Positions 2,102 to 46,500 of a stretch of DNA of 64,000 bases are shown here, piece by piece (position 1 is the first letter of the stretch; each line of letters begins with the position of its first letter). This DNA comes from Enterobacter phage CC31, in the sequence record NC_014662.1, one strand, 5' to 3'. Under the pieces are notes generated by a model, which was not told the DNA's origin, made no database searches, and saw only the letters and a program-made list of their open reading frames with translations. A program made the position numbers and the translations under genes.

Positions 2102-3670
2102 ATGAAATTTGACGTCTTAAGTTTGTTCGCGCCGTGGGCCAAAGTCGACGAACAGGAATACGACCAGCAGCTAAATAATAATTTAGAGTCTATCACGGCC
2201 CCTAAATTTGATGACGGCGCGACAGAGATTGAATCGGAACGTGGAGACATTGCAGGCGCTGGATTATTCCAGAGAATGTACGGTCAAAATGAACCGGGAA
2301 TGAAAAACACCAGGGAGCTTATCGATACTTACCGTCAGTTAATGAATAACTACGAAGTAGATAATGCTGTCCAAGAAATCGTCTTAGATGCAATCGTATA
2401 TGAAGACGAACATCCAGTAGTTGCACTGGATTTAGATAAAACAAATTTTAGCCCAGCGATTAAAGACCGACTGCAAGAAGAATTTAATGAAGTTCTTACT
2501 TGTCTGAATTTCGAAAGAAAAGGTCTCGACCATTTCCGTCGCTGGTACGTCGATTCTCGTATCTTCTTCCATAAAATTATTAACCCTAAAAACCCGAAAG
2601 AAGGTATTCAAGAGCTTCGTCGTTTAGACCCTCGCAATATTCAGTTCGTTCGTGAAGTTATCACTGACACTGAAGCGGGCGTGAAAATCGTTAAAGGCTA
2701 CAAAGAATATTTCGTTTATAACACCGGTCACGAATCTTATCAATGTGACGGTCGAATTTACGACGCTGGAACAAAAATTAAAATTCCAAAGGCTGCAGTT
2801 GTTTATGCACACTCTGGATTAGTTGATTGCTCAGGAAGAAACATCATCGGTTATTTGCACCGAGCTGTTAAACCTGCAAACCAGCTTAAACTGCTTGAAG
2901 ACGCAATGGTGATTTATCGTATTACACGTGCACCAGACCGTCGAGTATTTTACATTGACACAGGGAATATGCCTTCCCGTAAAGCTGCTGCTCATATGCA
3001 ACACATCATGAACACCATGAAAAACCGTGTGGTATATGATGCATCTACTGGTAAGATTAAAAACCAGCAGCATAATATGTCAATGACAGAAGATTATTGG
3101 TTACAGCGTCGTGACGGTAAAGCTGTTACTGAAATCGATAATATGCCTGGTGCTACTGGTATGAACGAAATGGACGATGTCCGTTGGTTCAAGAACAACC
3201 TTTACCAAGCATTACGTGTTCCACTGTCTCGTATTCCGAACGACCAGCAAGGCGGAGTTCAATTCGATGCGGGTACAGGTATTACGCGTGACGAGTTACA
3301 GTTTGCTAAATTCATTCGTGAATTGCAGCATAAGTTCGAAGAAATTTTCCTCGACCCTCTTAGAACGAATCTTGTTTTAAAAGGCGTAATGAGCGAAGAT
3401 GATTGGAAAGATGAAATAAATAACATTAAGATAGTATTTCATCGTGACAGTTACTTCACTGAACTTAAAGATGCTGAAGTTACCGAACGCAGATTCAATA
3501 TGCTTCAAATGGCCGAACCGTTTATCGGTAAGTATATTTCTCACCAGACAGCTATGAAGACTATTCTTCAAATGACTGATGAACAAATTGAACAAGAGGC
3601 TAAGCAAATTGAGCTAGAGTCTAAAGAGGCTCGTTTCCAAGACCCAGACCAAGAACAAGAGGATTTCTAA
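2102..3670 (+). CDS. 20: portal vertex protein
   Basis: N-terminus [14 protein letters not shown] and long blocks match recalled T4 gp20; ORF track start at 2090 is a TTG, ATG at 2102 preferred. Confidence 0.9.
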
Positions 3671-3912
3671 TGGAAGATTTCATCTCCGCACTCAAATCCA
3701 ACGACCTCGTTAAAGCAAAGAAAGCCTTTGGTGCTATTATGCTTGAACAGACCGCTGATTTGATTAGCCAACGTCGTGTTGAGATTGCCCAATCTATTAT
3801 GATTGAAGGCGAAGAAAAAGAAGACGACGAAGACGAGAATGATGATTCTGAAGATGAAGGTAAAGAAAAACCTGAATCTAAAGATGAAAAAGATTCTGAA
3901 GACGAAGACTAA
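3670..3912 (+). CDS. 67: prohead core protein gp67
   Basis: 80 aa with acidic C-terminal tail; ATGA overlap with gene 20 stop; T4 position. Confidence 0.8.
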   Translation: MEDFISALKSNDLVKAKKAFGAIMLEQTADLISQRRVEIAQSIMIEGEEKEDDEDENDDSEDEGKEKPESKDEKDSEDED

Positions 3913-3927
3913 GAATAAGGAGTCGCA

Positions 3928-4353
3928 ATGCTGATTGTTCCTGATGAGTACGAAGTCGTACTTGAAAACATCGAAGCAGCTATTCCTGAAGCCGAATCTC
4001 GTTTTAAGCAGTTGTCAGAAGCTCTCGATAAAGCAGACATAAATACAATTGTAGAAAACATGTTGCCAATTGAACCTGAAGTAGCAATTGCTATGGGTTC
4101 ACTGAATGAAGAAATGCAGCTCAATGAATTTATCGTTAAGCATGTTTCTTCTCGTGGAGAAATTACGCGTACTAAAGACCGTAAAACCCGCGAGCGTCAA
4201 GCATTCCAAACAACTGGTTTATCTAAAGCTAAACGTCGCGCTATCGCTCGAAAAGTCGTTAAGTCCAAACGCGCTAATCCGTCTGGTACTGTACGAGGCA
4301 ACCGCAAACGTAAGAAAGCTATGAAACGTCGTCAGGCGTTAGGATTAAGCTAA
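3928..4353 (+). CDS. 68: prohead core protein gp68
   Basis: 141 aa, basic C-terminus, T4 position between 67 and 21. Confidence 0.75.
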
Positions 4354-37855: not shown

Positions 37856-38986
37856 TTAGATGTACTCAGCCGGAGTGAATGGCTTTGTGTTCTTCAAGAA
37901 TGCACAGTTGAGCTTGGTGATGAGCTGGTCGTCATCAAGGTCTCCTGCATACATTTTCATGATGATACCGAAAACTTGAGGTAGACCGGCCAATGCGGTT
38001 TCAGCTTGAGCGTTTGCTGCGTAAGACTTACGGTCTTTACCACGATGAGTAGCATAGAAGTCCTGGCACAGCTTAAGAGAAGAACGCAGATAGTTCAAGT
38101 ACTGAGTTTCGAAAGCATTGATTTTACCCAACGCAAACTCGTCAGAATCGAACATACCACGAAGGTCATCTGCCGCGTTATTCACGATGCACTCAAACAG
38201 ACGCTCGTTGTTGATAATGGAGTCTTTGGTGTGGTGCAGAGCCGTGTACCATTCGGTTTTCAGCTTAAAGCGTAAACCATCTTCCATAACCATCACGTAA
38301 CCTTCGATTTGCTCTTCAGCTCGAAGCTTGGAAACAAAATCACCTTTAGGAACTTCAAAGGCTTCTACCAGATACTTACGAAAAACTGGATGAGCCAGAA
38401 GGTCTTCGTAGTCAACATACTCACCAGTATCGTTTTCACGAACGTTCAGAAGAACAAGCATCTTTTTAGGATAGCTCAGAACAATTCGGTTCTGCGGAGA
38501 GCAGTATTCGAAGTTAGCGGTGAAGCCATCTTTTGCTAAATCAATCAGAGCTTCAGCCAAATCCAAATGCTCAATACTTGCCAGCATTGCAGAAGCTTCA
38601 ACAGCCTGCTCAGATTTGATAGAAGTCTTAGACTTAAAGCGAATACGATTTTCGCCGTCTAGATAAGTAGAAACCAAAGAACCATCTTCTTTAGCCAGCA
38701 TGTACTTAACTTTGGAAAGGTCTAGATTCATTGTGAACGGAGTTTCATTCAGGTTGAAGAACTTTTCCATTGGACGAGATGCAATACGCACTGGGATGTC
38801 ATCAACATCAAGTTCAAACATGATGCCACGGCACTCTAATGCAGACGGCAGAAGCCAGTCAGAGTAAGATGCGTAATGGTAAGAAAACGTGCGGTATTTG
38901 TACCCCATTGGAGATACATCATCACGGTAGAAGAAACGAGTTTCATCGTTACATAGAGTCATGAGCTCATTGAATAATTTTTTCAC
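37856..38986 (-). CDS. rnlA: RNA ligase 1
   Basis: 376 aa; blocks RIASRPMEKFFNLNE, KEDGSLVSTYLDG, GFTANFE match recalled T4 Rnl1. Confidence 0.9.
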   Translation of the reverse strand: MKKLFNELMTLCNDETRFFYRDDVSPMGYKYRTFSYHYASYSDWLLPSALECRGIMFELDVDDIPVRIASRPMEKFFNLNETPFTMNLDLSKVKYMLAKEDGSLVSTYLDGENRIRFKSKTSIKSEQAVEASAMLASIEHLDLAEALIDLAKDGFTANFEYCSPQNRIVLSYPKKMLVLLNVRENDTGEYVDYEDLLAHPVFRKYLVEAFEVPKGDFVSKLRAEEQIEGYVMVMEDGLRFKLKTEWYTALHHTKDSIINNERLFECIVNNAADDLRGMFDSDEFALGKINAFETQYLNYLRSSLKLCQDFYATHRGKDRKSYAANAQAETALAGLPQVFGIIMKMYAGDLDDDQLITKLNCAFLKNTKPFTPAEYI

Positions 38987-39396
38987 TTTTTACCCTTATG
39001 TTGAGTATTCCACGGAGGATTGAATTTTTTGATGAACATCGGTTCTTCAAGGTCCATCGTTGAGATTGACATTTCACCGAGTTCGTTGTTTATCAGGAGA
39101 TTAAAGCACTGTCGAGCATAAAAGCTAACAGTCTTTCCTGACATCAGAGCATCGTAAATCTTAGCTGACTTAGTTGAGTCTGACGTCTGGTCTTTGCGAT
39201 TAATCGCTGTCCTGTAATAATTTATTCTCTTTCTGAGATTCTTGGTCTTACCGATGTAGACCAACTCATCATCAACTGCAATTGCATATACCACGTTCAA
39301 CTTGTTTGGAACTTGGACTTGGTCTATAGTGCAATCAGGTAGCAGCTTCAGTTGAGTGTATTCTATAAAAGAAAACTCGTTAGCAATATCTTTCAT
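38983..39396 (-). CDS. denA: endonuclease II (GIY-YIG family)
   Basis: 137 aa; VVYAIAVDDELVYIGKTKNLRKRINYYR GIY-YIG motif and near-identity to recalled T4 DenA. Confidence 0.85.
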   Translation of the reverse strand: MKDIANEFSFIEYTQLKLLPDCTIDQVQVPNKLNVVYAIAVDDELVYIGKTKNLRKRINYYRTAINRKDQTSDSTKSAKIYDALMSGKTVSFYARQCFNLLINNELGEMSISTMDLEEPMFIKKFNPPWNTQHKGKK

Positions 39397-39422
39397 AACA
39401 GAAGGGCCCGAAGGCCCTCTCC

Positions 39423-40598
39423 TTACAAATACTTTCTGAATTTCAACAGCACATCAGCATCGACATCGTTGTCAATCTGAGCTACAAGGTAACTTGAGAT
39501 TTCAACTTCTTGTGGAGCAGATTGTACCGCATCTGAGTTTAAGTATTCACGAATCCATGGGATTGGGTGACGAACAGGAGCGTCAGTAATCGGGCATGGA
39601 AGACCACAGCTACGCATACGTGAAACTGTCAGATAGTCAATGAAGTCATGAAGGATTTTCACAGATAGACCAGGAACCCCGCCATCGCGCCACAGATGAA
39701 CTGCCCATTCTTTTTCTTGGCGGTTGATTTCCATGAAGATATCAACTGCTTCTTGTTCGCATTCACGAGCAATCTGAACCCATTCTTCGCCATCAGTACC
39801 AAGCTGAAGCTGACGAATAATGTACTGTGTACCCTTAAGATGGAGCTGTTCATCACGTGCGATGAACTTCATAATCTTGGAGTTACCTTCCATGATTTCC
39901 ATGTTCTTATGGAAATTGAAGGTACATGCGAAAGATACGTAAAAACGAATTGCTTCAAGACCATTGATGACATGCAGACACAGATAAAGTGCTTTCATTA
40001 GTTCACGTTTAGCATCAATGACATATCCTTCATACATTTCAATGTCATTTTGTTGGCATGAACCAAGAGATTCTTCATACCGCTCTTTAGCGTTTTCCCA
40101 CAGACGAGTCTTCAGAATTACATCGTCATAATAATGACCAATTGTCTCAGCTCGTTTCATAATTGCTTCATCGAGAACAATCTCATCAAACACCTTTGCC
40201 GGGTCATTCAGCAGGTTACGCATGATGTGAGTATATGAACGAGAGTGAATCGTTTCAGAGAACGTCCAGGTCTGGTTCCATGTATCGAGTGATGGGTCAG
40301 AAATCAGAGCAGAAAGAACAGCAGCTGGAGCTCGGCCTTGGATTGAATCCAGAAGGCTTTGATATTTCAGATTATCAAGGAATACGTTTTGCTGGCCAAC
40401 TGGAAGCTTTTCAAATTGAGCTCGGTCAGTCATCAGGTTAACTTCTTCAGGACGCCAGAAGAACGAGAGTTGTTTCTCAATCAGTTCTTCAAATGTACGG
40501 TGGCGCTGAATATCATATCGTGCAATACCAAGCCCACTTCCGAAGAACATCGGCTCGGTCATCAAATCTACTTGTTGCGTATTAAAAACTGTGCTCAT
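39423..40598 (-). CDS. nrdB: ribonucleotide reductase small subunit (intron-free)
   Basis: 391 aa continuous ORF at the T4 nrdB position. Confidence 0.9.
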   Translation of the reverse strand: MSTVFNTQQVDLMTEPMFFGSGLGIARYDIQRHRTFEELIEKQLSFFWRPEEVNLMTDRAQFEKLPVGQQNVFLDNLKYQSLLDSIQGRAPAAVLSALISDPSLDTWNQTWTFSETIHSRSYTHIMRNLLNDPAKVFDEIVLDEAIMKRAETIGHYYDDVILKTRLWENAKERYEESLGSCQQNDIEMYEGYVIDAKRELMKALYLCLHVINGLEAIRFYVSFACTFNFHKNMEIMEGNSKIMKFIARDEQLHLKGTQYIIRQLQLGTDGEEWVQIARECEQEAVDIFMEINRQEKEWAVHLWRDGGVPGLSVKILHDFIDYLTVSRMRSCGLPCPITDAPVRHPIPWIREYLNSDAVQSAPQEVEISSYLVAQIDNDVDADVLLKFRKYL

Positions 40599-40645
40599 TA
40601 TTTACCTCTTAAGACCATCCGTGGTCCAATTATAAACTGAAAGAA

Positions 40646-42901
40646 TTAAAGCTTACATGCAGAACAATCTTCGGCTTTTGGTTTTTCGATTTCAAAATCG
40701 TCGTTACCAGAACCATCACGAGTGTTATGATAGTACAACGTCTTACCGCCAAAGTACCAGAAGTAAAGCAAGTCGTCCATCATAACAGACATTGGCACTT
40801 TACCTTTCTCATAGTTCTGAGGGTCATAGTAAGTATTAGCTGATGCAGATTGGCATACCCACTTCAACATAATAGCTACTTGAGTCAGATAAGGTTTGTT
40901 ACCCTGTTTAGCAAGTTTCCATGCATAATCATAGAGGTCAGCATTCAGTTCAACATTCGGAACTACTTGGTTGAAGCTTCCTTCTTTAGACTCTTTAATA
41001 GAGACTGGACCTCGTGGCGGCTCAATACCGTTTGTGCTGTTGGAAACCTGGGAGGAGGACTCACATGGCATGAGTGCGGACAATGTACTGTTACGGATGC
41101 CATATTGCTTGAGTTCTGCACGGAGTGCTTCCCAGTCACAAACGTAATTCGGCGCCGCGAGCTGGTCAATTCTCTTATTGTACCAGTCGATAGGTAATTC
41201 GCCTCGAGACCAACGAGTGTCTTTATAATACTCGCAAGGTCCTTTTTCTTTTGCAAGTTTAATTGATGCTTTAATGAGTGCATATTGCAGCCTTTCAAAC
41301 AGTTCATGAGTCAGGTCGTTTGCATCAGCGTATGTAGCAAAGTTATCTGCCAACCAAGCAGCATAGTTCGTTACACCAACACCCAATGCTCGGCGTTTAA
41401 GAGCTTTCAAAGCTTCTTTAACTGGATAACCTTGATAACTCAAGAGGTTGTCGAGTGCTCGGACTTGGACTTCTGCGAGTTCGTTAATAGTTTCTTGGTC
41501 TTGCCAATCGAAGTTGCCGAGCACGAACGCAGACAACGTACACAGCGCAATTTCTGCGTCTTCTGAGTAGACGTCTTTAGTAGGTAACGCAATTTCTGCG
41601 CAGAGGTTCGATTGCTTAATCGTAGCCACATCACGAATAAAAGGACCATAATCACCAACGTTATCTACGAAGTAAGGATAGATACGAGCAGTACCCGAAC
41701 GCTCAGTCAAGAACAGTTCAATTAATTCACGAGCTTTAACACGTTTCTTACGAACATCTGGGTTCTTTTCAAGAGCTTCATATTGTTCACGGAACGCAGC
41801 AGCATCTTTGAAATAGTTCTCATACAAACGACCCGCATCAATATCCGGAGAGAACAGAGTGATGTAGTCGTCTTTAATCAGACGTTCAAACATCAGGTCG
41901 TTGATTTGAACACCATAATCCAAGTGACGAATTCGGTTTTCATCTACGCCTTTGTTGTTCTTAAGTACGAGGAGGTTCTCAACTTCAAGGTGCCAGATTG
42001 GATAGTACAATGTCGCCGCGCCACCACGGACTCCGCCTTGGGAACAAGACTTAACTGCTGTTTGGATGTGTTTCCAGAAAGGAATAACTCCAGTATGCTT
42101 GACTTCTCCGAAGCCGATTTTTGAACCTTCTGCACGAATCATACCTGCGTTAATGCCGATACCAGCACGTTTAGAGATGTACTCTACAATTGATTCAGCT
42201 GATTTGTTAATTGACTTCAGTGAATCACCAGCTTCAATAACAACGCAAGAACTGAATTGACGAGTAGGAGTACGAGCACCTGCCATGATTGGAGTTGGCA
42301 GAGAAATTTTCTTAGTTGACACAGCATCATAAAAACGAATAGTGTTAACCAAGCGATTTTCACCATCATCCTGGTGCAGAGTCATACCGATGAGCATGAA
42401 TGCAAACTGAGGAGTTTCGATGATTTGACCCGTGCTGCGGTCTTTAACCAGGTATTTTTCAATGAGCTGCATTGTACCAGCATACGTCATTTCAAAATCA
42501 CGGTCATGAACAATTTTACTTTCAAGCAGAGCAATTTCTTCAGCAGACCATTTGGCAAGAACTTCTTTGTCATATTTGTTGTGATTAACACCAAATGAAA
42601 TCTGGTCAATAAATGAACGAGGCTCAAACTGCCCATAAACTTGCTTACGGAGATTGAACATCGCCAGATTACTTGCGACGTACTGATAATCTGGTTCTTC
42701 AATTGAAATCATTGAAGCTGCAACCTTAGTAGCTGCGCGTTGAATGTCATACGTCGTCATTCCATCTTGCAGATGTGGAACGATAGCTTGATATAGCTCA
42801 TATGGGTCAACTCGGGTGTTTTCACAACCCCATTCCAGAACCTTAATAAGTTTTTCTGGAGTAAATTCCTGAGAGGTACCACTGGACTTAATTACTTTCA
42901 T
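40646..42901 (-). CDS. nrdA: ribonucleotide reductase large subunit
   Basis: 751 aa class Ia RNR alpha chain at the T4 nrdA position. Confidence 0.9.
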   Translation of the reverse strand: MKVIKSSGTSQEFTPEKLIKVLEWGCENTRVDPYELYQAIVPHLQDGMTTYDIQRAATKVAASMISIEEPDYQYVASNLAMFNLRKQVYGQFEPRSFIDQISFGVNHNKYDKEVLAKWSAEEIALLESKIVHDRDFEMTYAGTMQLIEKYLVKDRSTGQIIETPQFAFMLIGMTLHQDDGENRLVNTIRFYDAVSTKKISLPTPIMAGARTPTRQFSSCVVIEAGDSLKSINKSAESIVEYISKRAGIGINAGMIRAEGSKIGFGEVKHTGVIPFWKHIQTAVKSCSQGGVRGGAATLYYPIWHLEVENLLVLKNNKGVDENRIRHLDYGVQINDLMFERLIKDDYITLFSPDIDAGRLYENYFKDAAAFREQYEALEKNPDVRKKRVKARELIELFLTERSGTARIYPYFVDNVGDYGPFIRDVATIKQSNLCAEIALPTKDVYSEDAEIALCTLSAFVLGNFDWQDQETINELAEVQVRALDNLLSYQGYPVKEALKALKRRALGVGVTNYAAWLADNFATYADANDLTHELFERLQYALIKASIKLAKEKGPCEYYKDTRWSRGELPIDWYNKRIDQLAAPNYVCDWEALRAELKQYGIRNSTLSALMPCESSSQVSNSTNGIEPPRGPVSIKESKEGSFNQVVPNVELNADLYDYAWKLAKQGNKPYLTQVAIMLKWVCQSASANTYYDPQNYEKGKVPMSVMMDDLLYFWYFGGKTLYYHNTRDGSGNDDFEIEKPKAEDCSACKL

Positions 42902-43199
42902 GCAAATCCTCTAGCGTAAATGTGTCTTTGAATAATCTGTTTACTATATGAGCTATTATATCACCATGGCAAGCTTTAGGTTTACAAGTGCATCCTAATC
43001 TCATTCCACGGAGAGTCTCCAGGTGCTCACGTTTTATTTCACCACTCCTAATACGCTTAATGAAGTCCTCTTTAAAGGCTTCAATGGCAGCCTCCCGGCT
43101 GCCAGCATTTTTACCAACGTCATTACCCCACATTGTACCTCGTTGGATATTAACGTCGAAATCGGAATGGTATTTATTAACCACTCGACAAGCTCTCAT
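42888..43199 (-). CDS. hypothetical protein with LGCTCKPKACHGD motif
   Basis: 103 aa; start overlaps nrdA by 14 nt. Confidence 0.6.
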   Translation of the reverse strand: MRACRVVNKYHSDFDVNIQRGTMWGNDVGKNAGSREAAIEAFKEDFIKRIRSGEIKREHLETLRGMRLGCTCKPKACHGDIIAHIVNRLFKDTFTLEDLHESN

Positions 43200-43429
43200 T
43201 TAACTTCCACAATAAACCATGTATCATGAATTAATTGATTAGATTCAAGTCCGAATTCTTCAAAACCGTGCGCTTTTTCGTATGCATGGACAACGTTACG
43301 AACATAGAGACGCGCTCCACGAACTTGAATAATTGAACCGACCTTTGGAATTTCAGAATCACGGATGTTATAAACTTCTGCGATAGGGTCTTCTTCATTA
43401 TTTTGAATTACAATTCTAAGATGTGGCAT
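43196..43429 (-). CDS. hypothetical protein
   Basis: 77 aa ORF. Confidence 0.55.
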   Translation of the reverse strand: MPHLRIVIQNNEEDPIAEVYNIRDSEIPKVGSIIQVRGARLYVRNVVHAYEKAHGFEEFGLESNQLIHDTWFIVEVK

Positions 43430-44475
43430 TATGCTTTACTCACAATAACAACGCGTTCAGTAGATTCACCAACAATTTCAATGTGATGAGCCAGAACTAT
43501 ATGAAAATAGCCATTAATCATAATAGAAGAGTTTAATTTGAAGTCAGCATCGCACAGTTGCTCATCAGTTTGAGCATAAACGATACTTCCCAAAGCATTT
43601 GTAAATTTAGTAATCATACAGCCATTTTTTCCTTTGATTGTTGGGTGACTTTCATAGTTAACTAACTTGAAGTCTTCGATAACAGCAAATCGGTTTATCC
43701 ACTTAAGCTGAGATGAAGTTTGCCAGCGCTCAAACTCAATTGGAAAATCAATTTCAAGATTGCAGAGTTCTTTTGGCTCTCGACGAAGAATTTCTTCGCA
43801 CTGCTCAATATGATTTGAATAAATGTGAGTGTTGCCGCCAGTAAATACCAAATGACCAGGTTTTAAGCCAGTCATTTTAGCTACGATATGAATCAAAGCA
43901 GCATACGACGCAATATTGAATGGTAGACCAAGGAATACATCTACCGACCTCTGGTACCACTGGAGGTCCAGAAGCCCATTGCGTACGTTGAACTGATATA
44001 TCATATGGCATGGTGGAAGCGCCATCTTAGGGATGTCTAGAGGGTTCCAGGCGGTCACAATTTGACGGCGGTCATTAGGTAGTTCTTTGATTCGGTTAAT
44101 AACCAAAGTCAATTGGTCAACACCCATAAAGTCTCGCCACTGCTTACCATAAACCGGACCAAGCTCGCCGTCGACATATCCCATTGAACGAGCTTGATTT
44201 TCGTAGTTGTCGTCCCAAACAGTTTTACCATTTGTCGGAGACCCATGCTGACGAAGACGCAAATCGTTTACATTCGTTGAACCGGACAAGAACCACAGAA
44301 GTTCTGCAATACATGCTTTCCAAGCAAGCTTCTTGGTAGTCACTGCTGGAAAACCTTCTTGCAAATCAAATCGTAATTGAGTACCAAACACAGCACAAGT
44401 GCCAGTTCCTGTGCGGTCGTCAGTTACATAGCCTTCATCAAAGATGTGTTGAATTAGTTGTTGATATTGTTTCAT
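43429..44475 (-). CDS. td: thymidylate synthase, intron-free; ORF as sequenced carries a 62-codon C-terminal extension
   Basis: TS motifs (ALPPCHMIYQF, DVFLGLPFNIASYA) complete through HPTIKGK at about residue 283; frame then continues to 43429, see finding. Confidence 0.85.
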   Translation of the reverse strand: MKQYQQLIQHIFDEGYVTDDRTGTGTCAVFGTQLRFDLQEGFPAVTTKKLAWKACIAELLWFLSGSTNVNDLRLRQHGSPTNGKTVWDDNYENQARSMGYVDGELGPVYGKQWRDFMGVDQLTLVINRIKELPNDRRQIVTAWNPLDIPKMALPPCHMIYQFNVRNGLLDLQWYQRSVDVFLGLPFNIASYAALIHIVAKMTGLKPGHLVFTGGNTHIYSNHIEQCEEILRREPKELCNLEIDFPIEFERWQTSSQLKWINRFAVIEDFKLVNYESHPTIKGKNGCMITKFTNALGSIVYAQTDEQLCDADFKLNSSIMINGYFHIVLAHHIEIVGESTERVVIVSKA

Positions 44476-44822
44476 TGGTTTCCTGGACGAAAGAAGATTT
44501 CACGGCCTTGTTTATCAAAACGACCAAAAACAGTCATCGTATTACCGGAGATAACAACGTTACCTTTAGCAATATGATGAATTGTTTGACGAGTGTTCAT
44601 CATAATTTTAACACCTAAACCATGAGCAATTCTGATGCCTTCATCAGCTGCCCAAGTGTCATTGATTTCAACGTCAATACGATAAAATCCATGAGGAATT
44701 GTTTTGTACAGCTCAGGTTTACGCTTATACTGTTCAATAGTAGGAGGATTACCCTCGATTACTAAAGCCCAATTCTTTTGGGCTTCTTCTTGTATCAACG
44801 TCAAATGATTATTGATTTTCAT
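44472..44822 (-). CDS. hypothetical protein, paralog B of a tandem pair
   Basis: Shares HG.Y and GNV..S.G..T..G.F.K.G...FF.P blocks with 44809..45129; start codon uncertain (ORF-track start 44879). Confidence 0.55.
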   Translation of the reverse strand: MKINNHLTLIQEEAQKNWALVIEGNPPTIEQYKRKPELYKTIPHGFYRIDVEINDTWAADEGIRIAHGLGVKIMMNTRQTIHHIAKGNVVISGNTMTVFGRFDKQGREIFFRPGNQ

Positions 44823-45129
44823 ATTGTTCTTCCAACGGATTGAAGAATACTTGACTTCCGCTTTTAAAGAAGTCTCCAATCATTGTAACACACCCATTTG
44901 AAAAGCTAACATTACCGTTCATTGAAGCAAGCAGTACTGATTTCATTGAACGACAAAGCTCAATTGGATTATTTCCGGTGCCGTCATATATAGTGTACTC
45001 ACCATTACGGTATTCTCTGATATCTCCAACCGCAAAGGATAACTCATACACGCCGTGTACTTTGTTCCAGTTCTTCCATTTCTTTTGAGTTTTGTAAGTC
45101 TCTAACAAACGAAGATTATATCCGTTCAT
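44809..45129 (-). CDS. hypothetical protein, paralog A of a tandem pair
   Basis: 106 aa; similarity to the downstream ORF visible by eye. Confidence 0.55.
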   Translation of the reverse strand: MNGYNLRLLETYKTQKKWKNWNKVHGVYELSFAVGDIREYRNGEYTIYDGTGNNPIELCRSMKSVLLASMNGNVSFSNGCVTMIGDFFKSGSQVFFNPLEEQYENQ

Positions 45130-45709
45130 AGACAGTCTCCGTTAATGAAGTTAGTTCATCACAACGTACCCAAGAAGTTTCTACCATTTGGAATGCGTTT
45201 TCCCATGCTGGATATGAAATGAAGCTCATGTCCAGAGTGACATCAGAGTTAACGCGATGCTTCTTCTGTATTGACGTTTGGACTATACGGTCTGCGTATG
45301 GCTGAGCCGTCTCTAGAATCCCCTTACCACCAATAACAGAATAGTTATCATTCGGAAGAAGACGAATACGAATGCCACCATGATTTGTGTAGTAGTTATT
45401 AGTTTTGTCAAGGAAAGCTTTAAATTCTTCTGGGCTCATGTAGCCATCAGGAAATAAACCATCTTTTGCTTGAGCAAATGGACGATTCATATCTTGGACA
45501 ACAATGCACTTGCGACCTTTAAGAGCAGTAGGCATGCTCATCCAAGTTTTTGCACCCATGATAACGACAGTGTCTTTAGTGCGTTTTGCAAAGTTTTGCA
45601 TATCACGCTTGATATGACCCCAAGGCAAGCCATCTTTAAGACCAAAAGCATATTCGTTTTGACCGTCAACGGTCTTGGTTCCGCAATAAGCATATACGAG
45701 TTGTAGCAT
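45116..45709 (-). CDS. frd: dihydrofolate reductase
   Basis: GLPWG, IMGAKT and VIGG motifs; start at MLQLVYAY overlapping the upstream stop. Confidence 0.85.
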   Translation of the reverse strand: MLQLVYAYCGTKTVDGQNEYAFGLKDGLPWGHIKRDMQNFAKRTKDTVVIMGAKTWMSMPTALKGRKCIVVQDMNRPFAQAKDGLFPDGYMSPEEFKAFLDKTNNYYTNHGGIRIRLLPNDNYSVIGGKGILETAQPYADRIVQTSIQKKHRVNSDVTLDMSFISYPAWENAFQMVETSWVRCDELTSLTETVYERI

Positions 45710-45921
45710 TATGATTTCCTGCATTTGATGAGTGCGTTGTAAAGGCGACGAGTAAATTCAATATTAGCTTCACGACCAATACGAGAGAAGAAGCCTTTAG
45801 TCATATCATCATATGATTGCTTTAAGCCAGTAGTGATTTCATCGACAGCCTTATTATATCCGGATTTATGAGCTTTGGCTTTAGCTTCTTCAAACTCTTC
45901 AAGAGTCATTGTGATTTGCAT
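45709..45921 (-). CDS. hypothetical protein
   Basis: 70 aa ORF. Confidence 0.5.
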   Translation of the reverse strand: MQITMTLEEFEEAKAKAHKSGYNKAVDEITTGLKQSYDDMTKGFFSRIGREANIEFTRRLYNALIKCRKS

Positions 45922-46160
45922 TATCGCACCTCAATATAAGCGACATACTTAGGAAGAATATAACCATCATCACCAGAACCAATAGCAAAGCGATAATTTT
46001 TATTGCGGCCCTGTTCCCAGACTAATTCAACCGTGTGAACTGTGCCATAAGTAGTTTCAACGATGAATGGCTTATCATATGCTTCATTTGCATAAAGTGT
46101 ATCAAGGCAAAAATCAGGACCAATTTTAACCAAACAGATGTCTTTGTATTCAAGTTCCAT
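45921..46160 (-). CDS. hypothetical protein
   Basis: 79 aa ORF. Confidence 0.5.
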   Translation of the reverse strand: MELEYKDICLVKIGPDFCLDTLYANEAYDKPFIVETTYGTVHTVELVWEQGRNKNYRFAIGSGDDGYILPKYVAYIEVR

Positions 46161-46402
46161 TACAATAATCCTTTTTCTTCAATGAATGCAATATCATCTG
46201 GGTCTATACCATAATCCATATCTTCACCAGGTTTCACAAAGCTAAAATGACCATCCTCCTTGCAAAGTTCTGCTTGGAAAATAGAACCCCATTTATCTTC
46301 AAGAACTAAAAGGCCACTGTAATGCTGGCTTTTCATCATTAGCCCGAGCTCATGAGGAGTTTTGTATTCAAATTCTTTTAATTCAATATTTTTACGTTTC
46401 AT
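46160..46402 (-). CDS. hypothetical protein
   Basis: Trimmed to the ATG in TAATG overlap with the upstream small ORF. Confidence 0.5.
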   Translation of the reverse strand: MKRKNIELKEFEYKTPHELGLMMKSQHYSGLLVLEDKWGSIFQAELCKEDGHFSFVKPGEDMDYGIDPDDIAFIEEKGLL

Positions 46403-46500
46403 TAACCTTGCCTCATTCCGCATTTAAAGCATTTACCGCCAAGTGACCACAAACCGGCACCACAATACTTGCATTCCCAATCAGAAAGAATTCGAATCAT
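46402..46500 (-). CDS. putative zinc-ribbon mini-protein (32 aa), not in ORF track
   Basis: MIRILSDWECKYCGAGLWSLGGKCFKCGMRQG with two CxxC pairs; overlaps upstream gene end by 20 nt. Confidence 0.3.
   Translation of the reverse strand: MIRILSDWECKYCGAGLWSLGGKCFKCGMRQG

What the first reader, a model, noticed from the sequence alone, without database searches (positions are those of the whole stretch)
39423..44475. nrdB and td are intron-free
T4 carries self-splicing group I introns with homing endonuclease ORFs in td and nrdB. Here both genes are single continuous ORFs of the expected spliced length (nrdB 391 codons; td TS domain uninterrupted), and no homing endonuclease ORF is present nearby. 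This marks the phage as an intron-minus T-even relative.
Basis: partly seen in the sequence, partly recalled or inferred. Interest (0 to 1): 0.35.

Follow-up and report, generated by a model that had tools for sequence, protein, structure and literature searches.

The report
Intron-free td and nrdB in CC31
The window comes from Enterobacter phage CC31, whose thymidylate synthase and ribonucleotide reductase genes do lack the self-splicing introns that phage T4 carries, which is the usual and already published state for such phages; the one oddity is a single extra A that fuses the thymidylate synthase reading frame to the next small gene.

Summary
The core observation holds. The window is Enterobacter phage CC31 (Karamvirus). 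Its nrdB (39423-40598, 391 codons) and td are collinear with the spliced T4 genes. The T4 intron positions are empty: td between 43927|43926 and nrdB between 39926|39925. No group I intron core and no homing endonuclease gene turns up anywhere in the 64 kb. The genes in this block overlap or lie at most 47 nt apart, so there is no room for an intron.

Two details need correcting.
- td is 348 codons, not the expected 286. One extra A in the run at 43625-43630 replaces the canonical end KGKMAV* and reads through into a separate 62-codon gene. Only CC31 and PG7 have six A's; all other relatives and metagenomic contigs examined have the five-base form. This is probably a homopolymer sequencing error, or else a slippage mutation.
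- A GIY-YIG ORF lies directly downstream of nrdB. It is the DenA (endonuclease II) orthologue, not a homing endonuclease.

The result is already published: Petrov et al. 2010 list CC31 with no homing endonuclease genes and no introns. Being intron-free is the norm: 2 of about 28 Karamvirus genomes carry a td intron and none carries an nrdB intron. Interest is low.

The parts
39423..40598 (-). nrdB, class Ia ribonucleotide reductase small subunit; 391 codons, continuous, no intron
   Evidence: ORF. Pfam PF00268, E=6.6e-34. 80% identical to spliced T4 NrdB. The exact protein is recorded in several Karamvirus genomes.
39925..39926 (-). Empty site that corresponds to the T4 nrdB intron. It lies after gene nt 673, inside the Cys codon T|GT of the motif SFACTFNF.
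   Evidence: The 598-nt T4 intron aligns as a single gap here. The junction is unambiguous: T4 ...TTTTGCGT|intron|GTACC..., window ...TTTCGCAT|GTACC....
40646..42901 (-). nrdA, ribonucleotide reductase large subunit; 751 codons, continuous. It is 47 nt from nrdB, with no mobE or nrdB.1 between them.
   Evidence: Pfam ATP-cone, Ribonuc_red_lgN and Ribonuc_red_lgC. T4 has mobE and nrdB.1 at this position. tblastn with MobE and NrdB.1 finds nothing.
42888..43199 (-). nrdA.1 orthologue (DUF4326), 103 codons
   Evidence: Pfam PF14216, E=1.5e-20. 81.6% identical to T4 NrdA.1.
43196..43429 (-). 77-codon gene of unknown function, present in only some Karamvirus genomes
   Evidence: phrog_2458. Absent from Ent31 and present in KaAlpha.
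43429..43617 (-). Standalone 62-codon gene (MITKFT...VSKA). In this sequence it is read as the C-terminal tail of td.
   Evidence: Annotated as a separate 189-nt CDS in ZX13, RZH, Ent31, Pet-CM3-4 and Entb_43. Full-length match to phrog_12548, positions 1-63 of 63. The exact 62-aa protein is recorded on 38 contigs. Absent from KaAlpha and EnC07.
43625..43630 (-). A6 homopolymer run with one A more than in relatives. It shifts td out of its canonical frame three codons before the stop.
   Evidence: The window reads GGAAAAAATGGCTGTATGA, against GGAAAAATGG or GGGAAAATGG in relatives. Only PG7 matches the 86-nt junction at 100%; 22 other records span it one base shorter and 4 lack the 62-codon gene. 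In IMG/VR only the CC31 and PG7 contigs have the 6-nt form. It is the only clean single-base indel unique to the window within 12 kb compared with three relatives.
43614..44475 (-). td, thymidylate synthase proper. Without the extra A it is 286 codons ending KGKMAV* with TGA at 43616-43614. As the sequence stands, the ORF runs on to 43429 (348 codons).
   Evidence: Pfam PF00303, E=3.7e-96, residues 2-283. The corrected product is 286 aa and 73.7% identical to T4 TS, with the same C-terminus. The tail in the canonical frame translates as MAV*. The exact 348-aa protein is CC31 ADB81733.1.
43926..43927 (-). Empty td intron insertion site, after gene nt 549, between Gly183 GGT and Leu184 CTA in the motif DVFLG|LPFNIASY
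   Evidence: The T4 intron (1017 nt) and the EnC07 and EcL8g introns (1011 nt) all align as one gap exactly here. Flanking sequence checked.
43949..43953 (-). CAGAG, at -27 to -23 from the empty td site. It occupies the position of the I-TevI cleavage motif CAACG (CNNNG) in T4 td.
   Evidence: Sequence; position relative to T4 from the alignment. C1 and G5 are the critical bases, and not every central triplet is cleaved (PMC5009752). Whether this site can be cut is an inference and was not tested.
38983..39396 (-). denA, endonuclease II: a GIY-YIG nuclease that is not a homing endonuclease
   Evidence: Pfam GIY-YIG, E=2e-5. 68.5% identical to T4 DenA over 143 aa, E=9e-67. phrog_1111. Same position as T4 denA, downstream of nrdB.

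Best explanation
The region is the frd-td-nrdA-nrdB-denA-rnlA nucleotide-metabolism block of Enterobacter phage CC31 (Tevenvirinae, Karamvirus).

Both td and nrdB are intronless alleles. Their coding sequences run straight through the positions where T4 carries its group I introns (td: I-TevI intron; nrdB: I-TevIII-relic intron). The phage has no homing endonuclease gene here or anywhere else in the 64 kb. Thymidylate synthase and the small ribonucleotide reductase subunit are therefore made by ordinary translation, without RNA splicing. This part is shown.

The empty td site keeps the conserved exon context and a CNNNG motif at the I-TevI cleavage distance. It could therefore be a recipient ('homing') site if CC31 co-infected a cell with an intron-plus relative such as EnC07 or EcL8g. 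This part is inferred.

The 348-codon length of td is a single-base artefact or mutation. One extra A in a homopolymer run fuses TS to the downstream 62-codon gene. A sequencing error in the deposited CC31 sequence is the most likely cause.
For: Identity of the window:
- The exact 348-aa td product is CC31 ADB81733.1/YP_004010095.1.
- A stretch fetched from the 165,540-bp IMG/VR contig is an exact substring of the window.

Collinearity and empty sites:
-.

Group I intron search with controls:
- RF00028 detects the T4 td and nrdB introns (40.3 and 35.7 bits) and the EnC07 intron (40.9 bits) at the relaxed threshold.
- It finds nothing in the window.

No homing endonuclease homologue:
-.
- The GIY-YIG ORF is DenA.

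No non-coding space:
- Gaps between neighbouring genes range from -71 to +47 nt.

Literature:
- CC31 is listed as 'None' for all homing endonuclease and intron classes (PMC2993671, Table 5).

Frameshift:
-.
- The 62-codon gene is an independent family and is separately annotated in relatives.
Against: Rfam is an imperfect detector here.
- At its gathering threshold it misses even the T4 introns.
- At E<=0.01 it missed the EcL8g intron, which is 99.5% identical to the EnC07 intron it did detect.
- The negative result therefore rests mainly on collinearity and the lack of spare DNA.

The sequencing-error reading of the extra A cannot be verified without reads.
- The same +1 A occurs in two independently deposited genomes, CC31 and PG7.
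- PG7's close relative ZX13 has A5, so a real, recurrent slippage mutation is not excluded.

The rest of the CC31 genome, including the position of the third T4 intron in nrdD, was not examined here. That part relies on the literature.
Confidence: 0.95

Rival explanations
1. The extra A is real. CC31 and PG7 carry a td frameshift allele, so the main product is a TS whose last three residues (MAV) are replaced by NGC plus the 62-aa downstream protein. This product would probably be inactive or weakly active, and the phage would rely on host ThyA.
For: The same A6 run is present in two independently deposited genomes. It is the only single-base indel unique to the window within 12 kb, so the sequence is not generally error-ridden. 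Homopolymer runs are natural slippage hot spots (general knowledge). T4 td mutants are viable on thyA+ hosts (my own knowledge, not tested here).
Against: The other Karamvirus records that span the junction, and the metagenomic viral contigs that match it, all keep the canonical frame. The fused 348-aa protein is recorded on a single contig, while the 62-aa protein is on 38. The TS C-terminal segment closes over the active site and contacts the cofactor (PMC6514825), so the fusion should be selected against in nature. Both A6 genomes date from 2010-2014, when homopolymer errors were common; this is an inference, because the sequencing platform was not checked.
Confidence: 0.3
2. The A6 run is a programmed recoding site. 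A +1 ribosomal frameshift (Lys-tRNA slipping AAA to AAA) or transcriptional slippage would restore the 286-aa TS, while the unshifted frame yields a TS-ORF62 fusion with a function of its own.
For: A +1 slip on GGA-AAA-AAT would regenerate exactly ...KGKMAV*.
Against: There is no stimulatory element typical of +1 sites: no in-frame stop or rare codon in the A site (AAT), and no conserved upstream Shine-Dalgarno-like signal was seen. Six A's is short for efficient transcriptional slippage (general knowledge). The arrangement is not conserved; relatives have A5 or GGGAAAA with a normal stop. Some relatives lack the 62-codon gene entirely.
Confidence: 0.03
3. A short, ORF-less or degenerate group I intron, or another intervening element such as an intein, is hidden within td, nrdA or nrdB.
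For: Rfam sensitivity is limited.
Against: The TS, NrdB and NrdA products match T4 lengths to within a few residues: 286 (corrected) against 286, 391 against 388, and 751 against 754 from T4's 2265-nt nrdA CDS. TS and NrdB align with T4 end to end, and the only NrdB insertion is 3 codons in a variable loop. NrdA was checked by length and Pfam domains only. There is no RF00028 signal. Intergenic gaps are 47 nt or less.
Confidence: 0.01

Closest known systems
Phage T4 td-nrdA-nrdB-denA block (NC_000866, 137.5-145.7 kb)
   Same: Same gene order and orientation: frd, td, nrdA.1, nrdA, nrdB, denA, rnlA. Protein identities to T4 are TS 73.7%, NrdB 80%, DenA 68.5% and NrdA.1 81.6%. The exon sequence around both intron sites is conserved.
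   Different: The window lacks several T4 elements: the td intron with I-TevI (1017 nt), the nrdB intron with the I-TevIII relic (598 nt), mobE and nrdB.1 between nrdA and nrdB, and nrdA.2. It has two extra paralogous phrog_1928 ORFs between frd and td, and two small ORFs (62 and 77 codons) after td.
Intron-plus Karamvirus phages EnC07 (PQ096442) and EcL8g (PQ227828)
   Same: Same genus. td exons are 89-98% identical to the window, and the intron insertion point is identical, after nt 549.
   Different: They carry a 1011-nt group I intron (RF00028, 40.9 bits in EnC07) that encodes a 260-aa I-TevI-like GIY-YIG endonuclease. The intron is 79% identical to the T4 intron. Their last ~60 nt of exon 1 diverge from the window (49/61 identical) and sit slightly closer to T4 (47/61, against 43/61 for the window), which looks like a co-conversion tract.
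Enterobacter phage PG7 (KJ101592) td
   Same: The only other record with the A6 run and a 348-codon td annotation.
   Different: PG7 is 96.1% identical to the window over the 2.1-kb td region. Its near-twin ZX13 has A5 and a separate 286-codon td plus the 62-codon ORF.

Membership tests
Group I intron (Rfam RF00028) inside td or nrdB | Extra DNA interrupting the coding sequence relative to the spliced homologue | tested here: not met
   The window genes align to T4 and EnC07/EcL8g exons with the intron as a single clean gap in the window row. Product lengths are 286 (corrected) and 391 aa, against 286 and 388 in T4.
Group I intron (Rfam RF00028) inside td or nrdB | Conserved catalytic core (P3-P9) detectable by covariance model | tested here: not met
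   No RF00028 hit up to E=10 in 38500-46000 or up to E=1 in the whole window. Positive controls at the same setting: T4 td 40.3 bits, T4 nrdB 35.7 bits, EnC07 40.9 bits. Caveat: the gathering threshold misses all controls, and the EcL8g intron was missed.
Homing endonuclease genes (GIY-YIG I-TevI/Seg type, HNH I-TevIII/Mob type) | An ORF homologous to known phage homing endonucleases, intron-borne or free-standing | tested here: not met
   tblastn with 6 endonuclease queries (T4 I-TevI, I-TevIII, MobE; the EnC07 intron endonuclease; the Entb_43 and Pet-CM3-4 HNH) gives a best E of 0.037 in the 64 kb. Small ORFs near td match only PHROGs of unknown function. Not every ORF of the window was scanned with profile HMMs.
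Homing endonuclease genes (GIY-YIG I-TevI/Seg type, HNH I-TevIII/Mob type) | A GIY-YIG ORF next to nrdB that is a mobile endonuclease rather than a housekeeping nuclease | tested here: not met
   ORF 38983-39396 is the DenA/EndoII orthologue (68.5% identity, full length, syntenic with T4 denA). It has 137 aa and no I-TevI-type DNA-binding domain.
Thymidylate synthase ThyA/Td (Pfam PF00303) | Full-length TS domain | tested here: met
   E=3.7e-96, residues 2-283, profile positions 1-263 of 266.
Thymidylate synthase ThyA/Td (Pfam PF00303) | Free C-terminal segment that closes the active site; the protein ends about 3 residues after the conserved IKG(K) motif | tested here: not met
   As deposited, the last three residues MAV are replaced by NGC plus 62 further residues, because of the extra A. 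The role of the C-terminal segment is described in PMC6514825. The feature would be met if the run is really A5.
Class Ia ribonucleotide reductase small subunit NrdB (PF00268) | Full-length domain, collinear with T4 NrdB | tested here: met
   E=6.6e-34; 80% identity over 385 aligned residues.
I-TevI homing site (intronless td allele) | CNNNG cleavage motif 23-27 nt upstream of the insertion site, plus a conserved binding region around the insertion site | tested here: inconclusive
   CAGAG lies at -27 to -23, so C1 and G5 are kept. The central triplet differs from T4's AAC, and many triplets are cut poorly (PMC5009752). Cleavage cannot be tested with these tools.

The most novel reading that the evidence does not exclude
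The six-A run is genuine in CC31 and PG7 and acts as a low-level +1 recoding or slippage site. On this reading the phage would make both a normal 286-aa thymidylate synthase and a TS fused to the 62-aa product of the downstream gene.
Probability: 0.03. Interest if true: 0.4.

Novelty: already known. Interest (0 to 1): 0.08.

Why it matters
It matters little. Being intron-free is the default among T4 relatives, and it was already tabulated for CC31 in 2010.

There are three practical uses.
- The exact empty sites (43927|43926 and 39926|39925) make CC31 a natural recipient allele for homing experiments with the intron-plus Karamvirus phages EnC07 and EcL8g.
- The deposited CC31 and PG7 td annotations (348 aa) probably carry a one-base error. 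That error has already spread: the 62-aa downstream ORF is labelled 'dTMP thymidylate synthase' in several newer genomes.
- Rfam's gathering threshold does not detect ORF-containing phage group I introns. A 'no hit' at that threshold should not be taken as evidence of absence.

Tried and rejected
- **Rfam at gathering threshold.** It found nothing on the window. I rejected this as evidence because the same setting also finds nothing on T4, EnC07 and EcL8g, which do carry introns. I replaced it with E-value-threshold scans plus controls.
- **First td alignment against T4.** It used the whole 348-codon ORF and gave a scrambled alignment. I repeated it with the TS part only.
- **First T4 nrdB exon join.** It was off by the 9-nt loop indel and produced a false stop. 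This was corrected.
- **Possible nrdB intron in myPSH1140.** That record has two CDS named 'NDP reductase small subunit', so I checked for an intron. One of them is DenA mislabelled and the other is a truncated nrdB call; the locus span shows no insertion.
- **The 62-residue td tail as intein, intron-ORF read-through or real domain.** I rejected all three. The tail is a separately conserved gene that overlaps the td stop in an ATGA arrangement in relatives.
- **Identity by descent of the A6 run in CC31 and PG7.** The test was uninformative, because the surrounding ~270 nt are identical in ZX13 as well, which has A5.
- **Looking up CC31 by accession.** NC_014662 is not in the phage collection.
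- **One literature search.** It failed on a term that was too short.
Full report
**What the window is.**
- The 348-aa product of the td ORF is, residue for residue, 'thymidylate synthase [Enterobacter phage CC31]' (ADB81733.1/YP_004010095.1), recorded on one contig of 165,540 bp.
- A 1093-nt stretch fetched from the IMG/VR contig of that length is an exact substring of the window (43258-44350).
- The nearest records in the phage collection are Karamvirus phages (PG7, ZX13, UFV01, KaAlpha and others) at 93-96% identity. CC31 itself is not in that collection.

**Anatomy.** All genes lie on the minus strand.

| Gene | Coordinates | Note |
|---|---|---|
| frd | 45116-45724 | |
| two paralogous ORFs | 44472-45129 | phrog_1928, function unknown |
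| td | 44475 downwards | |
| 62-codon gene | 43617-43429 | |
| 77-codon gene | 43429-43196 | |
| nrdA.1 | 43199-42888 | DUF4326 |
| nrdA | 42901-40646 | |
| nrdB | 40598-39423 | |
| denA | 39396-38983 | |
| rnlA | 38986-37856 | |

Neighbouring genes overlap or are at most 47 nt apart. The order matches T4. T4's mobE, nrdB.1 and nrdA.2 have no counterpart in the window.

**Checking the observation.**
- nrdB is a continuous 391-codon ORF.
  - Aligned to the T4 gene, the only large gap is the 598-nt T4 intron.
  - The junction is unambiguous. T4 reads ...TTTTGCGT|intron|GTACC..., and the window reads ...TTTCGCAT|GTACC....
  - This puts the empty site between 39926 and 39925, inside the Cys codon of SFACTFNF.
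  - Protein identity to spliced T4 NrdB is 80%.
- For td, three introns align as one clean gap after gene nt 549: the 1017-nt T4 intron and the 1011-nt introns of two phages of the same genus, EnC07 and EcL8g.
  - The empty site is therefore between 43927 and 43926 (Gly183|Leu184, DVFLG|LPFNIASY).
- The central claim, that both genes are intron-free, is correct.

**Group I intron search, with controls.**
- Rfam at its gathering threshold finds nothing in the window. It also finds nothing in T4, EnC07 or EcL8g, so that negative carries no weight.
- At the E-value threshold, RF00028 detects the T4 td intron (40.3 bits), the T4 nrdB intron (35.7 bits) and the EnC07 intron (40.9 bits).
- The same setting gives no RF00028 hit in 38500-46000 up to E=10 or in the whole window up to E=1.
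- The detector is not perfect: it missed the EcL8g intron, which is 99.5% identical to EnC07's.
- The firm evidence is therefore collinearity and the absence of spare DNA.

**Homing endonucleases.**
- tblastn with T4 I-TevI, the I-TevIII relic, MobE, the EnC07 intron endonuclease and the HNH endonucleases of Entb_43 and Pet-CM3-4 gives nothing better than E=0.037 anywhere in the 64 kb.
  - It is the full-length, syntenic orthologue of T4 DenA (endonuclease II): 68.5% identity, E=9e-67, phrog_1111.
  - DenA is a host-DNA degradation nuclease, not a mobile element.
- Relatives do carry mobile genes in this block that CC31 lacks.
  - Entb_43 and Pet-CM3-4 have a 615-nt HNH gene between rnlA and denA.
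  - EnC07 and EcL8g have the td intron.

**The detail that is wrong: td length.**
- The ORF is 348 codons, not the 286 of T4 and of nearly all relatives.
- The sequence reads ...ATC AAA GGA AAA AAT GGC TGT ATG ATT....
- With one A fewer it reads ...GGA AAA ATG GCT GTA TGA, that is KGKMAV*, identical to the T4 C-terminus. The next gene's ATG then overlaps that stop (ATGA).
- The downstream 62-codon gene is an independent family.
  - It is a full-length match to phrog_12548.
  - It is annotated separately in ZX13, RZH, Ent31, Pet-CM3-4 and Entb_43.
  - It is recorded as a 62-aa protein on 38 contigs.
  - It is absent altogether from KaAlpha and EnC07.
- The A6 form is rare.
  - Among 28 phage records matching the junction, only PG7 (listed twice) shares it.
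  - Among 7 IMG/VR contigs matching a length-tolerant pattern, only the CC31 and PG7 contigs have the 6-nt form.
- PG7's near-twin ZX13 has A5. The extra A therefore arose, or was miscalled, twice.
- It is the only clean single-base indel unique to the window in 12 kb compared with three relatives.
- The TS C-terminal segment closes over the active site and contacts the cofactor (PMC6514825). A real fusion should therefore be harmful to TS activity.
- My estimate: about 0.65 for a homopolymer sequencing error in two early genomes, about 0.3 for a real slippage mutation tolerated in laboratory stocks, and about 0.03 for programmed recoding. Only reads or resequencing can decide.

**How it works.**
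- Shown: TS and NrdB of CC31 are encoded by uninterrupted genes, so no splicing step is required.
- Inferred: the empty td site is a potential recipient for intron homing.
  - It keeps the conserved exon context and a CNNNG motif (CAGAG, 43953-43949) at exactly the distance (-27 to -23) of T4's CAACG.
  - C1 and G5 are the critical bases, but many central triplets are cut poorly (PMC5009752), so cleavability is untested.
- The last 61 nt of exon 1 in EnC07 and EcL8g drop to 49/61 identity with CC31. The preceding 61 nt are 58/61 and 61/61 identical. That pattern is what co-conversion during homing would leave.

**Comparison with what is known.**
- Petrov et al. 2010 (PMC2993671, Table 5) list CC31 as 'None' in every homing endonuclease category, including intron-encoded ones.
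- Within Karamvirus, 2 of about 28 distinct genomes carry the td intron. None shows an insertion in nrdB; spans are 1176-1222 nt.
- The finding is correct, ordinary and already published.

**Verdict.** Novelty: already known. Interest: low.

Noticed in passing
window 43625-43630 (and td ORF 43429-44475): One extra A in a homopolymer run fuses td (canonical end KGKMAV*) to the downstream 62-codon gene, giving the 348-aa 'thymidylate synthase' deposited for CC31. Only PG7 shares it. Newer genomes have inherited the label 'dTMP thymidylate synthase' for the unrelated 62-aa ORF.
   Followed up: yes
L002 (EnC07) 2475-3485; L003 (EcL8g) about 2475-3485: Two Karamvirus phages carry a 1011-nt group I intron with a 260-aa I-TevI-like endonuclease at exactly the T4 td site. 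The intron is 79% identical to the T4 intron, and the last ~60 nt of exon 1 look co-converted. A 2010 review saw no convincing evidence that these introns had moved between T4-related phage clusters.
   Followed up: partly
window 38983-38986 (rnlA/denA junction) and 40599-40645 (nrdB/nrdA gap): Entb_43 and Pet-CM3-4 have a 615-nt HNH homing endonuclease gene between rnlA and denA, and two small ORFs between nrdA and nrdB. In the window, rnlA and denA overlap by 4 nt and nrdA and nrdB are 47 nt apart, so both insertion points are empty.
   Followed up: partly
window 44472-45129: Two tandem paralogous ORFs (both phrog_1928, function unknown) sit between frd and td. In T4, frd and td overlap directly.
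   Followed up: partly
window 43196-43617: The 62-codon and 77-codon genes between td and nrdA.1 form a variable cassette across Karamvirus. Both are present in CC31 and ZX13, only the 77-codon gene in KaAlpha and EnC07, and only the 62-codon gene in Ent31, Entb_43 and Pet-CM3-4.
   Followed up: partly
window about 46158-46400: A 242-nt stretch covering the 87-codon ORF at 46160-46423 is present in the window but absent from the three relatives aligned (myPSH1140, Pet-CM3-4, Entb_43).
   Followed up: no
L011 (T4), L002, L003: Method note. Rfam RF00028 at its gathering score (50 bits) misses the ORF-containing T4 td and nrdB introns, which score 40.3 and 35.7 bits. At E<=0.01 it detected the EnC07 intron but not the 99.5%-identical EcL8g intron.
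   Followed up: yes
L008 (myPSH1140) 2984-3999: In the myPSH1140 record, denA is annotated as 'aerobic NDP reductase small subunit' and nrdB is called as a truncated 576-nt CDS. This looks like an annotation or frameshift problem, not an intron.
   Followed up: partly
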